A stretch of 64,000 bases of DNA from Candidatus Parcubacteria bacterium (GCA_019661895.1 JAIFWO010000001.1:1181-65180), one strand, 5' to 3'. Counted from the stretch's first letter, positions 17,747 to 21,260 are shown. The notes: generated by a model not told the origin, from the letters alone. Program-made: numbers and translations.

Positions 17747-18028
17747 TTAGAACTGTATATACTGCTCGTGCTGGTTAGCGCTGTTGGTGATGCCGAAGGT
17801 GCCGAGAATGAGGTGGATGATGCCGTAAGCGCTAAACATCACGAACATGCCAATGAGTCCGAAGACGAGCTTCCTCTTACCCTCCTCCCTCCCTGCATCT
17901 GTCTCGGCCGTGGCCAGGAATTGCACCACTCCAACAAAGAAGACGAGGGTTGCAACCGCAAAGAGAAAGATGATGAGCGGGTTAAGGATAAACTGATTGA
18001 TCTTGTTTAGAAACTCGTTGATCGGCAT
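17747..18028 (-). CDS. small two-helix membrane protein, VirB2/TrbC-like (pilin-like) family, paralogue 1
   Basis: The architecture is TM1, charged loop ETDAGREEGKRK, TM2. It shares the design of the next five genes. Confidence 0.45.
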   Translation of the reverse strand: MPINEFLNKINQFILNPLIIFLFAVATLVFFVGVVQFLATAETDAGREEGKRKLVFGLIGMFVMFSAYGIIHLILGTFGITNSANQHEQYIQF

Positions 18029-18030
18029 TA

Positions 18031-18417
18031 CTATCGATTGCCGTTGACGGTAGGAGTAGTAATGTTGGGAGCCGTGTCAGGATTGACGCCAAGAGCGTTA
18101 CCGATGAATCGGACCAGACCCCAGACTGAGACCATGACGAAGAGGGCGATGATCGAGTAGATCATAAGGCTCTTGGCTTCCTTCCTCTTCTCTTCATCAT
18201 CGGCACTAAAGATAAACTTGGCCAAACCCCAGAAGAAGGCCAGAAGGGCCAAACCGACGACGATCGGGAGAGCGGTGTTGACCAGGGTTTTGAGGCCCAA
18301 GAGCAGGTTGTTAACATTCTGAAGTTGGGCAAAGGCGAGGGAGGGAGCGAGGGCAAGAGCTGCAACTATATACTTTTTCATAATTAATATTTGTTTGTAA
18401 TACCTAATGGTATGCAT
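18031..18417 (-). CDS. VirB2/TrbC-like pilin-family protein, paralogue 2 (signal peptide + 2 TM)
   Basis: The signal peptide reads MKKYIVAALALAPSLAFA. The mature region is ...FFWGLAKFIFSADDEEKRKEAKSLMIYSIIALFVMVSVWGLVRFIG. Confidence 0.5.
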   Translation of the reverse strand: MHTIRYYKQILIMKKYIVAALALAPSLAFAQLQNVNNLLLGLKTLVNTALPIVVGLALLAFFWGLAKFIFSADDEEKRKEAKSLMIYSIIALFVMVSVWGLVRFIGNALGVNPDTAPNITTPTVNGNR

Positions 18418-18461
18418 CTATGATACTCCACATAGAAGAGAAGGCAATGAGGAAATCCCCA

Positions 18462-18830
18462 CTATCGGGCCGGGTTGCAGATCTGTCCAATAACGGGATC
18501 TTGGGTGCAAATCTGGTTGTTATTCGGGATAGGATTCTGAAGACCTGGGTCAGGAGAGATGTAGACTTCGAGGCCTAAGGCTACCCCGATGAAGCGGACC
18601 AACCCCCAGACTGAGACCATGACAAAGAGGGCGATGACGCCCCAGAGCATTCTATTCCTACCCGCCTCCTGACTCTTCTCATCGCCAGACTTGAAGAGGA
18701 AGGTAACCATACCCCAGAGAAATATAAAGATGGCCACAGCCGCCGCAAGCTCCAAAAGGATATTGATGCTGTGTCCTAGGGCGATGATAAGATCTTTAAG
18801 GCCGCTGATGGCTTGAGCAGAATTCTCCAT
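18462..18830 (-). CDS. VirB2/TrbC-like pilin-family protein, paralogue 3
   Basis: The segment FLFKSGDEKSQEAGRNRMLWGVIALFVMVSVWGLVRFIG has the same TM2 signature as paralogue 2. Confidence 0.5.
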   Translation of the reverse strand: MENSAQAISGLKDLIIALGHSINILLELAAAVAIFIFLWGMVTFLFKSGDEKSQEAGRNRMLWGVIALFVMVSVWGLVRFIGVALGLEVYISPDPGLQNPIPNNNQICTQDPVIGQICNPAR

Positions 18831-18831
18831 A

Positions 18832-19149
18832 CTATTGGGTTCCTTTAATAGGAAGGTATGGAAGACCGAAGGGGCTAAGACCGTAGCGAGTATTGTTAAA
18901 ACCTAAGTCATTGAAGAAAAGACGGATAATCCCCATAAATGATACGAGGACGAAGAGGGCGATGACGCCCCAAATCATAAACTTGCGGCCATCGGTATGG
19001 CTCTTCTCATCGCCAGACTTATAAATAAATTTGATAAGGCCCCAAATGAAGAGAAGAAGGGCGAGGGCCGCTAGAACCGGAAGAGCGGTGTGAATGAGAT
19101 CAAGGAAGAGGAGAACGACGTCTTGGAGTCTATCAGGTGTCTGTGCCAT
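18832..19149 (-). CDS. VirB2/TrbC-like pilin-family protein, paralogue 4
   Basis: The segment reads FIYKSGDEKSHTDGRKFMIWGVIALFVLVSFMGIIRLF. Confidence 0.5.
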   Translation of the reverse strand: MAQTPDRLQDVVLLFLDLIHTALPVLAALALLLFIWGLIKFIYKSGDEKSHTDGRKFMIWGVIALFVLVSFMGIIRLFFNDLGFNNTRYGLSPFGLPYLPIKGTQ

Positions 19150-19547
19150 TAAAATTGATTTATTGTGCCTTCGATAACATTAGCGATGACATATGAGCCA
19201 AGGAGTACGGCTGTACCGATAGACGTATAGAGAAGCGCGGTGGTGGCCTCCTTGATCTGATTCTCATTGCCTCTCGCCATGACATATTTAAAGCCAGACC
19301 AGATAAAGCCGAGCACTGCTAGGACAGCACCTATGGGCAAGACCACGGTGTCGATGACTTTCTTAAGAAATTCTGGAAGGGTGTTTCCTCCCTTAAATGG
19401 ATTCGGAAGTGAGGTACCGCCAGGCGTGCTGCCGACCGCATCGGGTCCAGATGGTGTCCCGCCTCGCGCATCTTGTGCGTGCACCAGCGTAATTGAAAGC
19501 ATGAAGAGAAGAATGAAAGCTAAAAAATGTGGAAAAATCTTTTTCAT
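19149..19547 (-). CDS. VirB2/TrbC-like pilin-family protein, paralogue 5 (signal peptide, Gly/Pro-rich N-region)
   Basis: The signal peptide reads ...LVHA. The two-helix region is FIWSGFKYVMARGNENQIKEATTALLYTSIGTAVLLGSYVIANVI. Confidence 0.45.
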   Translation of the reverse strand: MKKIFPHFLAFILLFMLSITLVHAQDARGGTPSGPDAVGSTPGGTSLPNPFKGGNTLPEFLKKVIDTVVLPIGAVLAVLGFIWSGFKYVMARGNENQIKEATTALLYTSIGTAVLLGSYVIANVIEGTINQF

Positions 19548-19894
19548 TATCTTACGAGTGAGTAATCACTATATAGAAGTGTACTGGTAATAGTGTACAC
19601 CACCACCCATGCGACAAGGATGATGACATAGCCCGTTAAGACGCTTCCGGCCATACTCTTGGCCTTATCCAAGGCGCCCGGCTTGCCGTTAGAAGTTATA
19701 AGGATAAAGCCGATCATCACACAGGCGACAACCGTAAGGAGAGTCGCCAAGACCGTAATATCATTTATCACAACCTTGATGAGATGAATGACATCAGCGA
19801 AGCCGCACTCATGGTTGGCATCTCCCGCCTCCTTGGCACCACATACTATGAGCGGATCCCAGACTCGGTTTGCTAGGGCTAAGAGATTATTCAT
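19547..19894 (-). CDS. VirB2/TrbC-like pilin-family protein, paralogue 6 (Cys pair in N-region)
   Basis: The Cys pair reads CGAKEAGDANHEC. It is followed by TM1-loop(PGALDKAKSM)-TM2. Confidence 0.45.
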   Translation of the reverse strand: MNNLLALANRVWDPLIVCGAKEAGDANHECGFADVIHLIKVVINDITVLATLLTVVACVMIGFILITSNGKPGALDKAKSMAGSVLTGYVIILVAWVVVYTITSTLLYSDYSLVR

Positions 19895-19968
19895 CCCGTT
19901 AGAAATTTACTAAATAAAATATTTATCATTAATCTTACCTTGACTTCTTTGACTTGTTTATTTCTAAC
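19895..19968. repeat. 12-bp inverted repeat (cccgttagaaat / atttctaacggg) flanking a ~50-nt AT-rich spacer between the SBP gene and the pilin-like array
   Basis: The inverted repeat is perfect. It could be an operator, attenuator or processing site. Confidence 0.4.
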
Positions 19969-19973
19969 GGGAT

Positions 19974-21260
19974 TCATTGCGATTCTATAATACTTCTCAT
20001 TGTACCATCGGCGGTCGAGAGTGCCTCGCCGCTCCTGGCCCGGCCCGAGGTCACCGAGGTGATCATGTCGGCAAACAGGCTCTTAGTCTTAACGGGATTA
20101 GGATCGAGCCATCCCTTAGACTGTATAGCCGCATCGTAGAAGATGGACTGCACTCCGTCCCCAGGCTTGTTGGAAAGAAGATCGCGCCTGGCTGGAGGCA
20201 AGCCGACGACGGAAGCGAGCGCCGAGACAGAAGCGCCTGAGGCGAGCTTGGTAGCGGCCACTAGGTCGGCCGCCTGGTTCCTGGAAGTTCTGACCAGAGC
20301 AATGCCGTACAGCTTGCCGTATGTCATGGTCTTCCCCGCCACGCGTGATTGAAGGACGGGGGTCACGCCGACGCTTAAATTGGGATTCTTGGCCTTCAAT
20401 ATCGGCAGCTCACTGGCAAAGCCGATGTAGAGAGCGCTGTCGCCAGAGACGAAGTTGGTCTGGGCGGAAGAGAGTGAGCGATTCCAGCTATAGAAGGGCT
20501 TGGCCGGGTTAGCAAACTGAGTGTAGAAGTCGAGAGCCGCCTCGCCCGGTGGCACTGGGAGGTTGAAGCTCTGGGTAAACTCGGGAGTCAGCCCGCCGCT
20601 TTGCATATCGGTAATGGGAGTACCGGCTTGGAGCATGAGCAGAGAGAGGATGTCCTTGGCATGAGGGATGTTGGTGGCCTCGCCGAGAGCGATAGCACTC
20701 TTCTTGATATTGCCCGCGGCATCCTTAATGGTGAGTTTGTCGGCGTAAGCGTAGAGCTCGTCCCAATACTTGGGCGCTTGGGCGATGGCAGCGCTATTCA
20801 ACAGGTCGCGATTGGTATAGAGGACAAGCGGGTCGACAAAGAGCGGCAGGGCGTAGATGCCCGAGAGGCTGGTGAGGAGGCGGCCCTCGTCTATGAAGGT
20901 CGAGTCGAAGTCGCTTTGCTTCACAGCACTAAATGGGATGAGGGTAAGCTTGTTGCGCTCTTGCCACACTTGATCCTGGCTCACGATGACGAGGTCCGGT
21001 CCGCGGCCCTCGGCCAGGGCTCCGGTAAACTCTTCGTCGAAGTTCTCCGGCGAGATCTCGACATAGTTAATGGAGAGGGTGTTGTCCTGACTCAAGGCGG
21101 CCGCGTTCATGAAGTTCTGGAAGTCGGTGATAGAGACCGGACCCCAGATGGTGACGTTGGCTACGGCCTTGCTCGAGCCCTTAGAGAGGGAGAAGACGAG
21201 AACGCCCGCCACAATAGCCACTCCGAAGATAGTAAGAAGGATGATCTGGAACTTGGACAT
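19974..21260 (-). CDS. extracellular solute-binding protein (ABC-type family-1 SBP-like), membrane-anchored, orphan
   Basis: An N-terminal TM anchor is followed by a periplasmic-binding-protein-like sequence. There is no adjacent permease or ATPase. Confidence 0.45.
   Translation of the reverse strand: MSKFQIILLTIFGVAIVAGVLVFSLSKGSSKAVANVTIWGPVSITDFQNFMNAAALSQDNTLSINYVEISPENFDEEFTGALAEGRGPDLVIVSQDQVWQERNKLTLIPFSAVKQSDFDSTFIDEGRLLTSLSGIYALPLFVDPLVLYTNRDLLNSAAIAQAPKYWDELYAYADKLTIKDAAGNIKKSAIALGEATNIPHAKDILSLLMLQAGTPITDMQSGGLTPEFTQSFNLPVPPGEAALDFYTQFANPAKPFYSWNRSLSSAQTNFVSGDSALYIGFASELPILKAKNPNLSVGVTPVLQSRVAGKTMTYGKLYGIALVRTSRNQAADLVAATKLASGASVSALASVVGLPPARRDLLSNKPGDGVQSIFYDAAIQSKGWLDPNPVKTKSLFADMITSVTSGRARSGEALSTADGTMRSIIESQ

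What the first reader, a model, noticed from the sequence alone, without database searches (positions are those of the whole stretch)
17747..21260. Tandem array of six divergent VirB2/TrbC-like two-helix pilin-family genes adjacent to an orphan solute-binding protein
Six consecutive same-strand genes encode 93-132-aa proteins. They share one design: an optional signal peptide, hydrophobic helix 1, a short charged loop (often KSGDEKS / ADDEEKRK) and hydrophobic helix 2 with a W-G-(L/V)-V-R-F-I-like end.

They are highly divergent in sequence, which implies paralogue diversification as in antigenic or functional variation of a surface filament subunit.

They are co-directional with an anchored ABC-type SBP that lacks transporter partners, and are separated from it by a perfect 12-bp inverted repeat. 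No VirB4, VirB6 or ATPase genes are in the window.

For a reduced, possibly episymbiotic genome, a diversified pilin repertoire would be a prime candidate for host-attachment or DNA-uptake structures.
Basis: partly seen in the sequence, partly recalled or inferred. Interest (0 to 1): 0.6.

Follow-up and report, generated by a model that had tools for sequence, protein, structure and literature searches.

The report
Conserved sugar-binder plus six-pilin operon

Summary
Six co-directional genes (window 19894-17747, minus strand) each encode a two-helix membrane hairpin. All six hit Pfam PF18895 (T4SS_pilin): five pass the curated cut-off, and one also passes TrbC/VirB2. A MalE-like solute-binding protein (SBP) with an N-terminal membrane anchor precedes them.

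The window holds no VirB4, VirB6 or VirD4 gene and no ABC permease or ATPase.

The "diversifying paralogues" reading is not supported. Each position is a separate orthologous family, kept in the same order across Paceibacteria. dN/dS against the closest relative is 0.04-0.13, close to GyrA.

The SBP is not a chance neighbour. In 62 of 65 species loci with enough downstream DNA, it is directly followed by a run of pilin-like genes, often with overlapping stop and start codons. This holds even where the gyrA synteny is lost.

Arrays of VirB2-like pilins in Patescibacteria are already published. One is an essential six-pilin array inside the Southlakia T4SS locus. The kind is therefore known. The SBP coupling, the separation from virB4 and the one-to-one orthology look undescribed in the literature I searched.

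The "12-bp inverted repeat" is the 14-bp terminal repeat of a roughly 79-nt MITE-like element. It is lineage-specific here, widespread in metagenomes, and inserts at start codons.

The parts
19974..21260 (-). First gene of the operon: a membrane-anchored, MalE-like (SBP_bac_1 / SBP_bac_8) solute-binding protein, 428 aa
   Evidence: PF01547 scores 63.6 bits and PF13416 61.5 bits. The AF2 model has pLDDT 88, with a TM helix at residues 3-26. Foldseek top hits are oligosaccharide SBPs (2zyo, E 9e-23, TM 0.71). The TM anchor is as conserved as the globular domain (0.74 against 0.68 column identity).
19894..19972 (.). A roughly 79-nt MITE-like palindromic element with 14-bp perfect terminal inverted repeats (19893-19906 / 19960-19973). 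It is inserted at the SBP-stop / p1-start junction.
   Evidence: IR arms and second copy. The relative L001 has the empty site caATGAac. At least 120 metagenome stretches carry the element, with 4-bp direct-repeat flanks in 96 of 126 copies. The RNA hairpin folds at -21.3 kcal/mol, z -3.0. A 28-codon mini-ORF spans the element.
19547..19894 (-). p1: pilin-like two-helix protein, 115 aa, with a Cys-X-Cys loop before helix 1 and no signal peptide in this lineage
   Evidence: PF18895 23.6 bits, E 5.7e-5, below the gathering score of 26.6. Same-position orthologues in L001, L002 and L004. Topology.
19149..19547 (-). p2: pilin-like, 132 aa, with a signal peptide, a G/P/T-rich linker and a PNPF motif
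   Evidence: PF18895 32.3 bits and PF04956 TrbC 29.5 bits, above the TrbC gathering score of 27.9. Orthologues.
18832..19149 (-). p3: pilin-like, 105 aa, no signal peptide, KSGDEKS loop
   Evidence: PF18895 27.8 bits. Orthologues.
18462..18830 (-). p4: pilin-like, 122 aa, closest paralogue of p5
   Evidence: PF18895 37.7 bits. One search shows its closeness to p5.
18031..18381 (-). p5: pilin-like, 116 aa from the internal ATG (the ORF extends to 18417), with a signal peptide; strongest PF18895 match
   Evidence: PF18895 49 bits, E 5e-13. Identical to an NCBI protein named 'pilin [Candidatus Parcubacteria bacterium]'. The AF2 model shows a helical hairpin at 20-59 / 63-96.
17747..18028 (-). p6: pilin-like, 93 aa, no signal peptide, last gene of the operon
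   Evidence: PF18895 27.7 bits, TrbC 20.5 bits. 80% identical to the L001 orthologue, dN/dS 0.04.
17699..17731 (.). G+C-rich hairpin between the convergent gene ends; probable bidirectional terminator closing the operon
   Evidence: Inverted repeat I12, 14 nt, 93% complementary, 5-nt loop. Sequence read.
16649..17719 (+). Convergent multi-TM membrane protein, 356 aa; a recurrent neighbour whose link to the operon is uncertain
   Evidence: No Pfam family. A multi-TM gene sits in the same place in L001-L005 and in the distant loci L080 and L081. BLAST does not show it to be homologous to them.
15375..16532 (+). Convergent SPFH/Band_7-like protein, 385 aa; a recurrent neighbour whose link to the operon is uncertain
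   Evidence: Positional counterparts carry Band_7: L004 (weak), and L074, L080 and L081. The pairwise BLASTP match to the L081 Band_7 protein has E 1e-4. The window protein itself has no Pfam hit.

Best explanation
The region is a conserved seven-gene operon of Paceibacteria (Parcubacteria). It encodes a membrane-tethered, MalE-like oligosaccharide-binding protein followed by six distinct VirB2/TrbC-superfamily (PF18895) pilin-like proteins.

Shown here:
- The six are ancient, non-interchangeable orthologous families kept in fixed order under purifying selection.
- They are co-expressed with the SBP, judging from overlapping or near-abutting stop and start codons in most species.
- Each is a helical hairpin, with two of the six carrying signal peptides.

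Inferred:
- They are this lineage's counterpart of the essential six-pilin array of the Patescibacteria type IV secretion system.
- After Sec/YidC insertion (termini outside, charged loop inside), a VirB4-powered machine encoded elsewhere in the genome extracts them from the membrane.
- They then assemble into one hetero-oligomeric envelope or surface structure, either a pilus or a short conduit. Each of the six subunits has its own place in it, much like major and minor pilins.
- The SBP sits at or beside this structure through its conserved transmembrane helix and binds a glycan, either a host-surface sugar or a host-derived oligosaccharide. That would couple ligand recognition or capture to the apparatus.
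For: Family and fold:
- Pfam hits and hydropathy.
- AF2 hairpin model.
- NCBI names the identical protein 'pilin'.

Non-redundancy:
- Reciprocal best matches go by position. The mean-score matrix has 208-334 on the diagonal and 41-215 off it.
- The order 123456, or close variants of it, holds across 80 species loci.
- dN/dS is 0.04-0.13, against 0.08 for GyrA.

SBP coupling:
- 62 of 65 loci have a pilin run directly after the SBP.
- 67 of 73 SBP-to-first-pilin junctions either overlap or are separated by 30 nt or less.
- The coupling persists where gyrA is no longer adjacent, in L071, L072, L075, L076, L080-L082 and L084.
- The SBP anchor helix has one conserved face.
- The SBP fold is that of an oligosaccharide binder.

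Link to the T4SS:
- In Southlakia, six PF18895 genes lie inside the T4SS locus and all are essential.
- VirB2-like arrays are widespread in Patescibacteria that carry VirB4.
- Five of the seven operon-bearing assemblies listed in that study have VirB4. The two without are small assemblies.
Against: - No T4SS gene lies within 17 kb on one side or 43 kb on the other in the window, nor within 10 kb in L001-L005. Dependence on VirB4 is therefore inferred only.
- No pilus has ever been seen for this family.
- p1 falls below the Pfam cut-off, and all six fall below the NCBIfam NF045849 cut-off.
- General synteny is high in this clade: gyrA is also a conserved neighbour. Adjacency alone is therefore weaker evidence among the near relatives.
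- No known T4SS uses an SBP as a structural partner.
Confidence: 0.55

Rival explanations
1. T4SS-independent membrane complex. The SBP and the six two-helix proteins (12 transmembrane helices in all) form a self-contained, SBP-dependent envelope channel for uptake or sensing of a host-derived sugar. The neighbouring multi-TM and SPFH proteins may take part. The VirB2-like fold would have been co-opted as a building block.
For: - SBP-pilin adjacency is conserved and translationally coupled.
- No ABC permease or ATPase, and no virB genes, lie nearby in the window or in L001-L005.
- The SBP transmembrane helix has a conserved face.
- Convergent multi-TM and SPFH/Band_7 genes recur after the array even in distant lineages.
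- A class I methyltransferase recurs directly upstream of the SBP in distant lineages.
Against: - There is no precedent and no energising component.
- The same Pfam family lies inside the T4SS locus and is essential there in Saccharibacteria.
- Most operon-bearing assemblies also have VirB4.
- Homology of the window's SPFH-like and multi-TM neighbours to the distant ones is weak or undetectable.
Confidence: 0.2
2. Co-located but functionally separate. The SBP is an ordinary receptor of an ABC sugar importer encoded elsewhere. It merely shares a promoter and a long-frozen gene order with the pilin genes.
For: - The SBP is a confident MalE-like fold with many invariant aromatic residues, as in sugar binders.
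- Synteny in this clade is generally very stable: LactB3, a 111-aa gene, gyrA, the SBP and the pilins stay together in most loci.
- More distant SBP homologues of the lipoprotein type occur without any pilins (L078, L079, L085).
Against: - The link survives the loss of gyrA synteny and the change of anchor type from TM helix to lipoprotein.
- Stop and start codons overlap in 28 junctions.
- No ABC partner was seen in any annotated flank.
Confidence: 0.15
3. Variable surface repertoire. The six genes would be diversifying paralogues used for antigenic or host-range variation of one filament subunit.
For: - Identity within the array is low.
- Published analogy with the VirB2 paralogues of Bartonella and Anaplasma.
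- Copy number varies a little, from 4 to 7, mostly by gain or loss of p4/p5-type genes.
Against: - One-to-one positional orthology across genera and a fixed order.
- dN/dS of 0.13 or less where it can be computed.
- Position-specific features are conserved: the Cys loop in p1, PNPF in p2, and the presence or absence of a signal peptide.
- All six Southlakia pilins are individually essential.
- No repeats suggestive of recombination or switching. The only DNA repeat family is the p4/p5/p3 helix-2 coding similarity.
Confidence: 0.05

Closest known systems
Six-pilin array of the Southlakia epibionticum (Saccharibacteria) T4SS, SEML1_0014-0019 (Wang et al. 2023, PMC10633639; reviewed in PMC12857230)
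   Same: - Six tandem, same-strand, sequence-divergent PF18895 (some also TrbC/VirB2) proteins of about 100-185 aa in a Patescibacterium.
- Non-redundant: each gene is essential there, and each position is orthologously conserved here.
   Different: - There the array lies inside the T4SS locus, next to VirB6-like, VirB4 and PrgI genes, and no SBP is listed beside it.
- Here it is separated from any T4SS gene and is headed by a MalE-like SBP next to gyrA.
VirB2 arrays of 2-11 pilin genes in Patescibacteria (Quinonero-Coronel et al. 2025, PMC12102498) and the 'array of small signal-peptide proteins' of TM7x (McLean et al., bioRxiv 10.1101/258137)
   Same: The same Pfam families were used for detection. 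Within-array identity is similarly low, about 25% on average.
   Different: - Those papers centre on the virB4 neighbourhood and propose antigenic or host-range variation.
- The text does not contain the terms solute-binding, substrate-binding, SBP or gyrA.
[quoted passage not shown]
Canonical conjugative pilins: VirB2 of the Agrobacterium T-pilus, TraA of F, TrbC of RP4 (own knowledge; Pfam PF04956)
   Same: A small protein with two hydrophobic helices and a short charged loop. A signal peptide is present in some. p2 passes the TrbC gathering score.
   Different: - There is one pilin gene per system, in diderm bacteria, encoded beside virB3 and virB4.
- No sequence-level match to solved pilins.
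- Processing or cyclisation is unknown here.
VirB2 paralogue families of Bartonella and Anaplasma (cited in PMC12102498)
   Same: Several VirB2-like genes in tandem.
   Different: Those are thought to be lineage-specific variable copies used for immune evasion. Here the copies are ancient, ordered orthologues under purifying selection.
MalE-type oligosaccharide-binding proteins of ABC importers
   Same: The fold (TM 0.7 to maltodextrin, mannooligosaccharide and sucrose binders), the Pfam families, and the membrane tether typical of monoderms.
   Different: - No permease or ATPase genes lie nearby.
- It is constantly followed by pilin-like genes.
- Its anchor helix is unusually conserved.
Binding proteins that work with conjugation/T4SS systems: ChvE-VirA sugar sensing in Agrobacterium and PrgZ pheromone binding in pCF10 (own knowledge, not tested here)
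   Same: An SBP-fold protein functionally tied to a T4SS.
   Different: Those act in signalling or pheromone import and belong to other SBP families. Neither is co-operonic with pilin genes.

Membership tests
Pfam PF18895 T4SS_pilin | Profile match at or above the gathering score (26.6 bits) | tested here: met
   p2 32.3, p3 27.8, p4 37.7, p5 48.9 and p6 27.7 bits pass. p1 at 23.6 bits, E 5.7e-5, is just below. 23 of 24 orthologues in four genomes match at E <= 1e-3.
Pfam PF18895 T4SS_pilin | Two hydrophobic helices joined by a short charged loop | tested here: met
   Hydropathy segments and loops of 10-21 residues carrying 3-5 K/R and 1-5 D/E. The AF2 model of p5 shows a hairpin.
Pfam PF04956 TrbC/VirB2 pilin | Profile match at or above the gathering score (27.9 bits) | tested here: inconclusive
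   Only p2 passes, at 29.5 bits. p6 scores 20.5 and p5 12.5; the other three have no hit. 6 of 24 orthologues match at E <= 1e-3.
Pfam PF04956 TrbC/VirB2 pilin | Similarity to experimentally solved conjugative pilins | tested here: inconclusive
T4SS pilin (functional sense) | Encoded with, or dependent on, VirB4, VirB6 and VirB3 | tested here: not met
   No such genes in the 64-kb window or within 10 kb in L001-L005. VirB4 exists elsewhere in five of seven related assemblies according to PMC12102498 Table S1.
T4SS pilin (functional sense) | Polymerises into an extracellular filament | not testable with these tools
   Needs microscopy or biochemistry. The cited review treats a pilus only as an 'intriguing possibility', not as something observed.
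NCBIfam NF045849 Mbov_0395 pilin-like conjugal transfer protein | Score at or above the cut-off of 40 | tested here: not met
   All six hit it, but at 21-37.9 bits.
Patescibacteria six-pilin array (Southlakia type) | Six tandem divergent PF18895 genes on the same strand | tested here: met
   compared.
Patescibacteria six-pilin array (Southlakia type) | Position inside the T4SS gene cluster | tested here: not met
   Here the array is flanked by gyrA and the SBP on one side and by convergent membrane and SPFH-like genes on the other.
Antigenic-variation pilin repertoire | Lineage-specific, rapidly diverging, interchangeable copies | tested here: not met
   Positional one-to-one orthology, fixed order and dN/dS of 0.13 or less.
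ABC-importer substrate-binding protein (SBP_bac_1 / MalE-like) | Profile and fold of a class I carbohydrate SBP | tested here: met
   PF01547 63.6 bits and PF13416 61.5 bits. Foldseek E 9e-23, TM 0.71.
ABC-importer substrate-binding protein (SBP_bac_1 / MalE-like) | Cognate permease and ATPase genes in the same locus | tested here: not met
   None in the window or in the annotated flanks of L001-L005. The rest of the genome could not be searched.
MITE (for the inverted repeat) | Short non-coding element with terminal inverted repeats, target-site duplication, many copies, and filled versus empty sites | tested here: met
   - 14-bp terminal repeats and two copies in the window.
- At least 120 metagenome stretches.
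- 4-bp direct repeats in 96 of 126 copies, mostly TGAA/TTCA.
- An empty site in L001, and a filled site in L001 where the window is empty.
- The autonomous partner was not found.

The most novel reading that the evidence does not exclude
The SBP and the six VirB2-like hairpins, possibly with the recurrent SPFH, multi-TM and methyltransferase neighbours, constitute a previously undescribed SBP-coupled envelope conduit. In it, a MalE-like receptor captures a host-derived oligosaccharide and hands it to a channel or pilus built from pilin-family subunits. This would be a nutrient-uptake device derived from type IV secretion parts, and would give the speculated 'T4SS as uptake conduit' of Patescibacteria its first concrete ligand-binding component.
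Probability: 0.15. Interest if true: 0.85.

Novelty: new variant of a known kind. Interest (0 to 1): 0.5.

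Why it matters
Patescibacteria make up a large share of bacterial diversity. They cannot make most of their own building blocks, and how they obtain material from hosts is unknown.

Their T4SS and its six pilins are essential in the one genetically tractable species, but no function is known for them. 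A deeply conserved operon that ties the six-pilin set to an oligosaccharide-binding protein in Paceibacteria gives a testable lead. The protein can be expressed and screened for its ligand, and probed for contacts with the pilins.

The result also corrects the prevailing reading of these arrays. They look like six fixed parts of one structure, not a wardrobe of variants.

Tried and rejected
- Exact-sequence contig look-ups for the window's SBP and for p5 (P0001) found nothing. The rest of this genome therefore could not be searched for virB4 or ABC partners.
- The pilin profile (A4) against PDB sequences gave only designed or unrelated membrane helices, best E 0.065.
- PHROGs: no phage family. 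NCBIfam: all hits below cut-off.
- Rfam on the inverted-repeat region: only sub-threshold eukaryotic miRNA and snoRNA noise. I therefore rejected a known structured RNA.
- An invertible promoter or attC-like site was considered for the inverted repeat. I rejected it in favour of a MITE on three grounds: the flanking 4-bp direct repeats, the copies in unrelated contexts, and the empty site in L001.
- Homology of the window's 356-aa membrane protein to the distant positional counterparts could not be shown.
- dS is saturated for p1 and p4, so no dN/dS could be given for them.
- An in-frame or leader-peptide role for the MITE was considered. A 28-codon ORF does span this copy, but element lengths are not biased towards the required frame.

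Full report
**1. What is in the sequence**

On the minus strand between 21260 and 17747 lie seven tightly packed genes (sequence). The first (21260..19974) encodes a 428-aa protein. Six small proteins follow:
- p1 19894..19547, 115 aa
- p2 19547..19149, 132 aa
- p3 19149..18832, 105 aa
- p4 18830..18462, 122 aa
- p5 18417..18031
- p6 18028..17747, 93 aa

The p1/p2 and p2/p3 junctions are TAATG overlaps. The p3/p4 and p5/p6 junctions have 1-2 nt gaps. A 14-nt-stem G+C-rich hairpin (17699-17731) closes the set against a convergent gene.

The database protein identical to p5 starts at the internal ATG, giving 116 aa (18381..18031). It then begins with a typical signal peptide, MKKYIVAALALAPSLAFA.

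Hydropathy analysis shows two hydrophobic helices in every one of the six, separated by a 10-21 residue loop rich in K/R and D/E. Only p2 and p5 have an extra N-terminal signal-peptide-like segment.

**2. Family assignment**

All six hit Pfam PF18895 (T4SS_pilin), with E from 7e-13 to 6e-5. Five reach the gathering score of 26.6 bits, and p1 is just below at 23.6. p2 also passes the TrbC/VirB2 (PF04956) gathering score, 29.5 against 27.9 bits. All six give sub-threshold hits to NCBIfam NF045849, a Mycoplasma ICE "pilin-like conjugal transfer protein". In four genomes, 23 of 24 orthologues hit PF18895 and 6 hit TrbC.

An AF2 model of p5 (pLDDT 79.5) is a signal helix followed by a long helical hairpin and a disordered Pro/Thr-rich tail. 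Fold and sequence comparison with solved structures does not settle the matter:
- The family profile finds no solved pilin.
- Foldseek finds nothing significant.

Membership of the VirB2/TrbC superfamily therefore rests on the Pfam profiles. It is reasonable, but it has not been demonstrated structurally.

The first gene is a confident MalE-like carbohydrate SBP. It matches PF01547 and PF13416. Profile hits in the PDB are sugar binders. The AF2 model has pLDDT 88, with a transmembrane helix at residues 3-26, and Foldseek gives TM about 0.7 to maltodextrin, mannooligosaccharide and sucrose binders.

**3. Source and surroundings**

Proteins identical to p5 and to the SBP are NCBI entries from a 65,978-nt contig of "Candidatus Parcubacteria bacterium", named "pilin" and "extracellular solute-binding protein".

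Pfam scans of all sizeable ORFs in the window show housekeeping genes plus several large surface proteins. The housekeeping genes are dprA, topA, parB, miaA, clpB, infB, rbfA, gyrA, rpsA-like, pth, lepB, ftsA, ftsZ, trxB, tsaD, leuS, lepA and murJ. There is no VirB4, VirB6 or VirD4 and no ABC permease or ATPase.

**4. The six genes are six orthologous families, not a diversifying repertoire**

Contigs carrying close p5 homologues show the same layout: gyrA, then the SBP, then six small genes of the same sizes and order, then two convergent genes. These contigs come from another Parcubacterium, a Zambryskibacterium and Parcubacteria bacterium C7867-005. In L001 the gene caller had missed p6, but it is there.

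In an all-against-all comparison, p1, p2, p3, p5 and p6 each find their three best matches in the same position of the other genomes. p4 best-matches its own position but is close to p5, suggesting a younger split. Mean scores are 208-334 within positions and 41-215 between them.

Position-specific traits are conserved:
- a Cys...Cys loop before helix 1 in p1
- a signal peptide, low-complexity linker and PNPF motif in p2
- no signal peptide in p3 and p6

Against the closest relative, dN/dS is 0.04-0.13 for the SBP, p2, p3, p5 and p6. GyrA gives 0.08. dS is saturated, and not computable for p1 and p4.

This pattern is the opposite of antigenic or phase variation. It matches the published finding that each of the six pilins of Southlakia epibionticum is essential.

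**5. The SBP is the conserved head of the operon**

An SBP alignment was used to scan one genome per species and returned 80 loci. They come from Zambryski-, Taylor-, Nomura-, Vogel-, Wolfe- and Moranii-bacteria and unnamed Paceibacteria. Several TPA MAGs carry doubtful "Saccharibacteria" or "Bdellovibrionales" labels.

Position-specific HMMs on all ORFs of those loci gave these results:
- 65 loci extend at least 2.6 kb past the SBP.
- 62 of the 65 have a contiguous same-strand run of pilin-like ORFs directly after it: 33 with six, 14 with five, 6 with seven.
- Exactly the order 1-2-3-4-5-6 occurs in 21 loci. Variants that differ in the p3/p4/p5 group occur in most of the rest.
- Of 73 SBP-to-first-pilin junctions, 28 overlap and 39 are separated by 0-30 nt.

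The three exceptions (L078, L079, L085) are distant lipoprotein-type SBPs followed by a TypA-like GTPase.

General synteny is high in the near relatives, where gyrA is also a constant neighbour, so adjacency there is weak evidence by itself. The link nevertheless persists in distant lineages. There gyrA is gone, the SBP is a lipoprotein, and some pilin domains sit in larger Cys-rich proteins that still score up to 63 bits on PF18895.

The SBP's transmembrane anchor is at least as conserved as its globular domain (0.74 against 0.68 column identity). It has an i/i+4 conserved face, F4-L8-F12-I16-V20. This suggests a specific partner within the membrane.

Two further neighbours recur:
- A multi-TM protein and an SPFH/Band_7 protein lie convergently after the array. 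Positional counterparts appear in L004, L074, L080 and L081. The window's own 385-aa protein matches them only weakly, and its 356-aa protein not detectably.
- A class I SAM methyltransferase lies directly upstream of the SBP in L004 and in the distant clade. It is absent from the window.

**6. What is already known**

- McLean et al. described arrays of 4-6 small signal-peptide proteins related to VirB2 in Saccharibacteria.
- Wang et al. 2023 found a series of predicted pilins inside the essential T4SS cluster of Southlakia. Their tables list SEML1_0014-0019 as six PF18895 proteins, all essential, next to VirB6-like genes and with no SBP.
- Quinonero-Coronel et al. 2025 counted 441 VirB2 arrays of 2-11 genes in 383 assemblies, averaging 25% identity. 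They suggested antigenic variation or host-range versatility.
[quoted passage not shown] It speculates that T4SS plus pilus is a conduit for uptake from the host.

None of the texts I could search mentions a solute-binding protein or gyrA in this context.

According to Table S1 of the 2025 survey, five of seven assemblies that carry the operon have VirB4. The two that do not are small assemblies of 384 and 468 kb. In the loci examined, VirB4 is not within 10 kb of the operon.

**7. Most likely mechanism**

Shown: a conserved, translationally coupled operon of one oligosaccharide-type SBP and six non-redundant VirB2-family hairpins under purifying selection.

Inferred:
- The six are inserted in the membrane with their termini outside and the charged loop inside.
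- They are then used by the VirB4-type machine encoded elsewhere to build one hetero-oligomeric surface or envelope structure.
- Each of the six has its own place in it.
- The SBP, held by its conserved anchor helix, adds glycan recognition or capture.

I put this at about 0.55. The rivals are:
- A T4SS-independent, SBP-coupled membrane complex (0.2). This is also the most novel reading.
- A merely co-located ABC receptor (0.15).
- The variation repertoire (0.05).

**8. The inverted repeat**

The repeat is 14 bp and perfect (19893-19906 / 19960-19973). It spans exactly from the SBP stop to the p1 start.

A second copy lies at 31775-31857, between lepB and a hisS-like gene, again ending at the start codon. 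Relatives have no spacer at this junction. In L001 the SBP stop overlaps the p1 start as caATGAac. L001 in turn carries a copy between infB and rbfA, where the window has none.

- 96 are flanked by identical 4-mers, mostly TGAA or its complement TTCA.
- 107 form an outward ATG from the terminal A plus the flanking TG. The open frame that follows has a median length of 181 codons.
- Of the 106 copies that could be oriented by that ATG, 29 have an SD-like motif just inside the ATG-proximal arm, against 9 at the distal arm.

No known Rfam family matches, and no full-length partner was found in the loci held.

It is thus a MITE-like element that inserts at ATGAA start-codon contexts and regenerates the start codon. 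It is a lineage-specific passenger in this operon, not part of its conserved design.

In this copy the RNA hairpin (-21.3 kcal/mol, z -3.0) covers the first two bases of the p1 start codon. A 28-codon ORF bridges the SBP stop and the p1 start, with ATGA overlaps at both ends. The length classes of other copies do not suggest that this is general.

**9. Verdict**

This is a real feature and a known kind: the Patescibacteria VirB2-like six-pilin array, already annotated "pilin" by NCBI. The form looks undescribed in three respects:
- it is headed by a MalE-like SBP;
- it is unlinked from virB4;
- it has one-to-one positional orthology across Paceibacteria.

The diversification interpretation is not supported. 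Interest is moderate (0.5). The SBP link makes the open question of what the Patescibacteria T4SS and its pilins do more directly testable.

Noticed in passing
window 19894-19972 and 31776-31856; L001 14646-14723; L086-L165: A roughly 78-80 nt MITE-like palindromic element with termini TCCCGTTAGAAA...TTTCTAACGGGA. It is flanked by 4-bp direct repeats, mostly TGAA. It is nearly always inserted exactly at a start codon, which it regenerates from its terminal A plus the flanking TG. At least 120 copies occur in metagenomes. No autonomous partner and no Rfam match were found, and I found no literature on it.
   Followed up: partly
window 19891-19977 (minus strand): A 28-codon ORF (MNPVRNKQVKEVKVRLMINILFSKFLTG) runs through the MITE copy. 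Its ATG overlaps the SBP stop (ATGA) and its TGA overlaps the p1 start (ATGA), so translational coupling could be relayed across the insertion. This is probably particular to this copy.
   Followed up: partly
window 15375-17719 (+); L074 9137-10099, L080 11494-13204, L081 9949-11837: A multi-TM protein and an SPFH/Band_7-like protein are encoded convergently just after the pilin array, both in near relatives and in distant lineages. They may belong to the same module. Homology of the window's copies to the distant ones is weak (E 1e-4) or undetectable.
   Followed up: partly
L004 6486-7019; L071 183-767; L072 5222-5809; L081 5290-5859; L084 5422-5973: A roughly 190-aa class I SAM methyltransferase gene sits directly upstream of the SBP in several lineages. 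It is absent from the window, where a 395-nt gap with a doubtful 102-aa plus-strand ORF (21332-21640) separates gyrA from the SBP.
   Followed up: partly
L001 10357-10638: In the public annotation of the closest relative (GCA_034680565.1), the sixth pilin gene was not called. An 88-aa ORF on the opposite strand was called instead. Counts of pilin genes taken from annotations will therefore be underestimates.
   Followed up: yes
window 42744-45349 and 50581-63962 (minus strand): A cluster of large secreted or surface proteins: He_PIG Ig, fn3 plus SH3_3, Big_7 plus SH3_3, Laminin_G_3, and an 816-aa TPR protein. These are candidate adhesins of an episymbiont and were not examined further.
   Followed up: no
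window 14640-15262: A cluster of five tRNA genes (Cys, Leu-taa, Gly-ccc, Lys-ctt, Leu-tag) lies between rbfA and the SPFH-like gene. The window holds 13 tRNAs in all.
   Followed up: no
L010, L012, L014, L072, L078-L080 and others: Many TPA MAG records carrying this Paceibacteria-type operon and synteny are titled 'uncultured Candidatus Saccharibacteria' or 'Bdellovibrionales'. These labels look unreliable.
   Followed up: no
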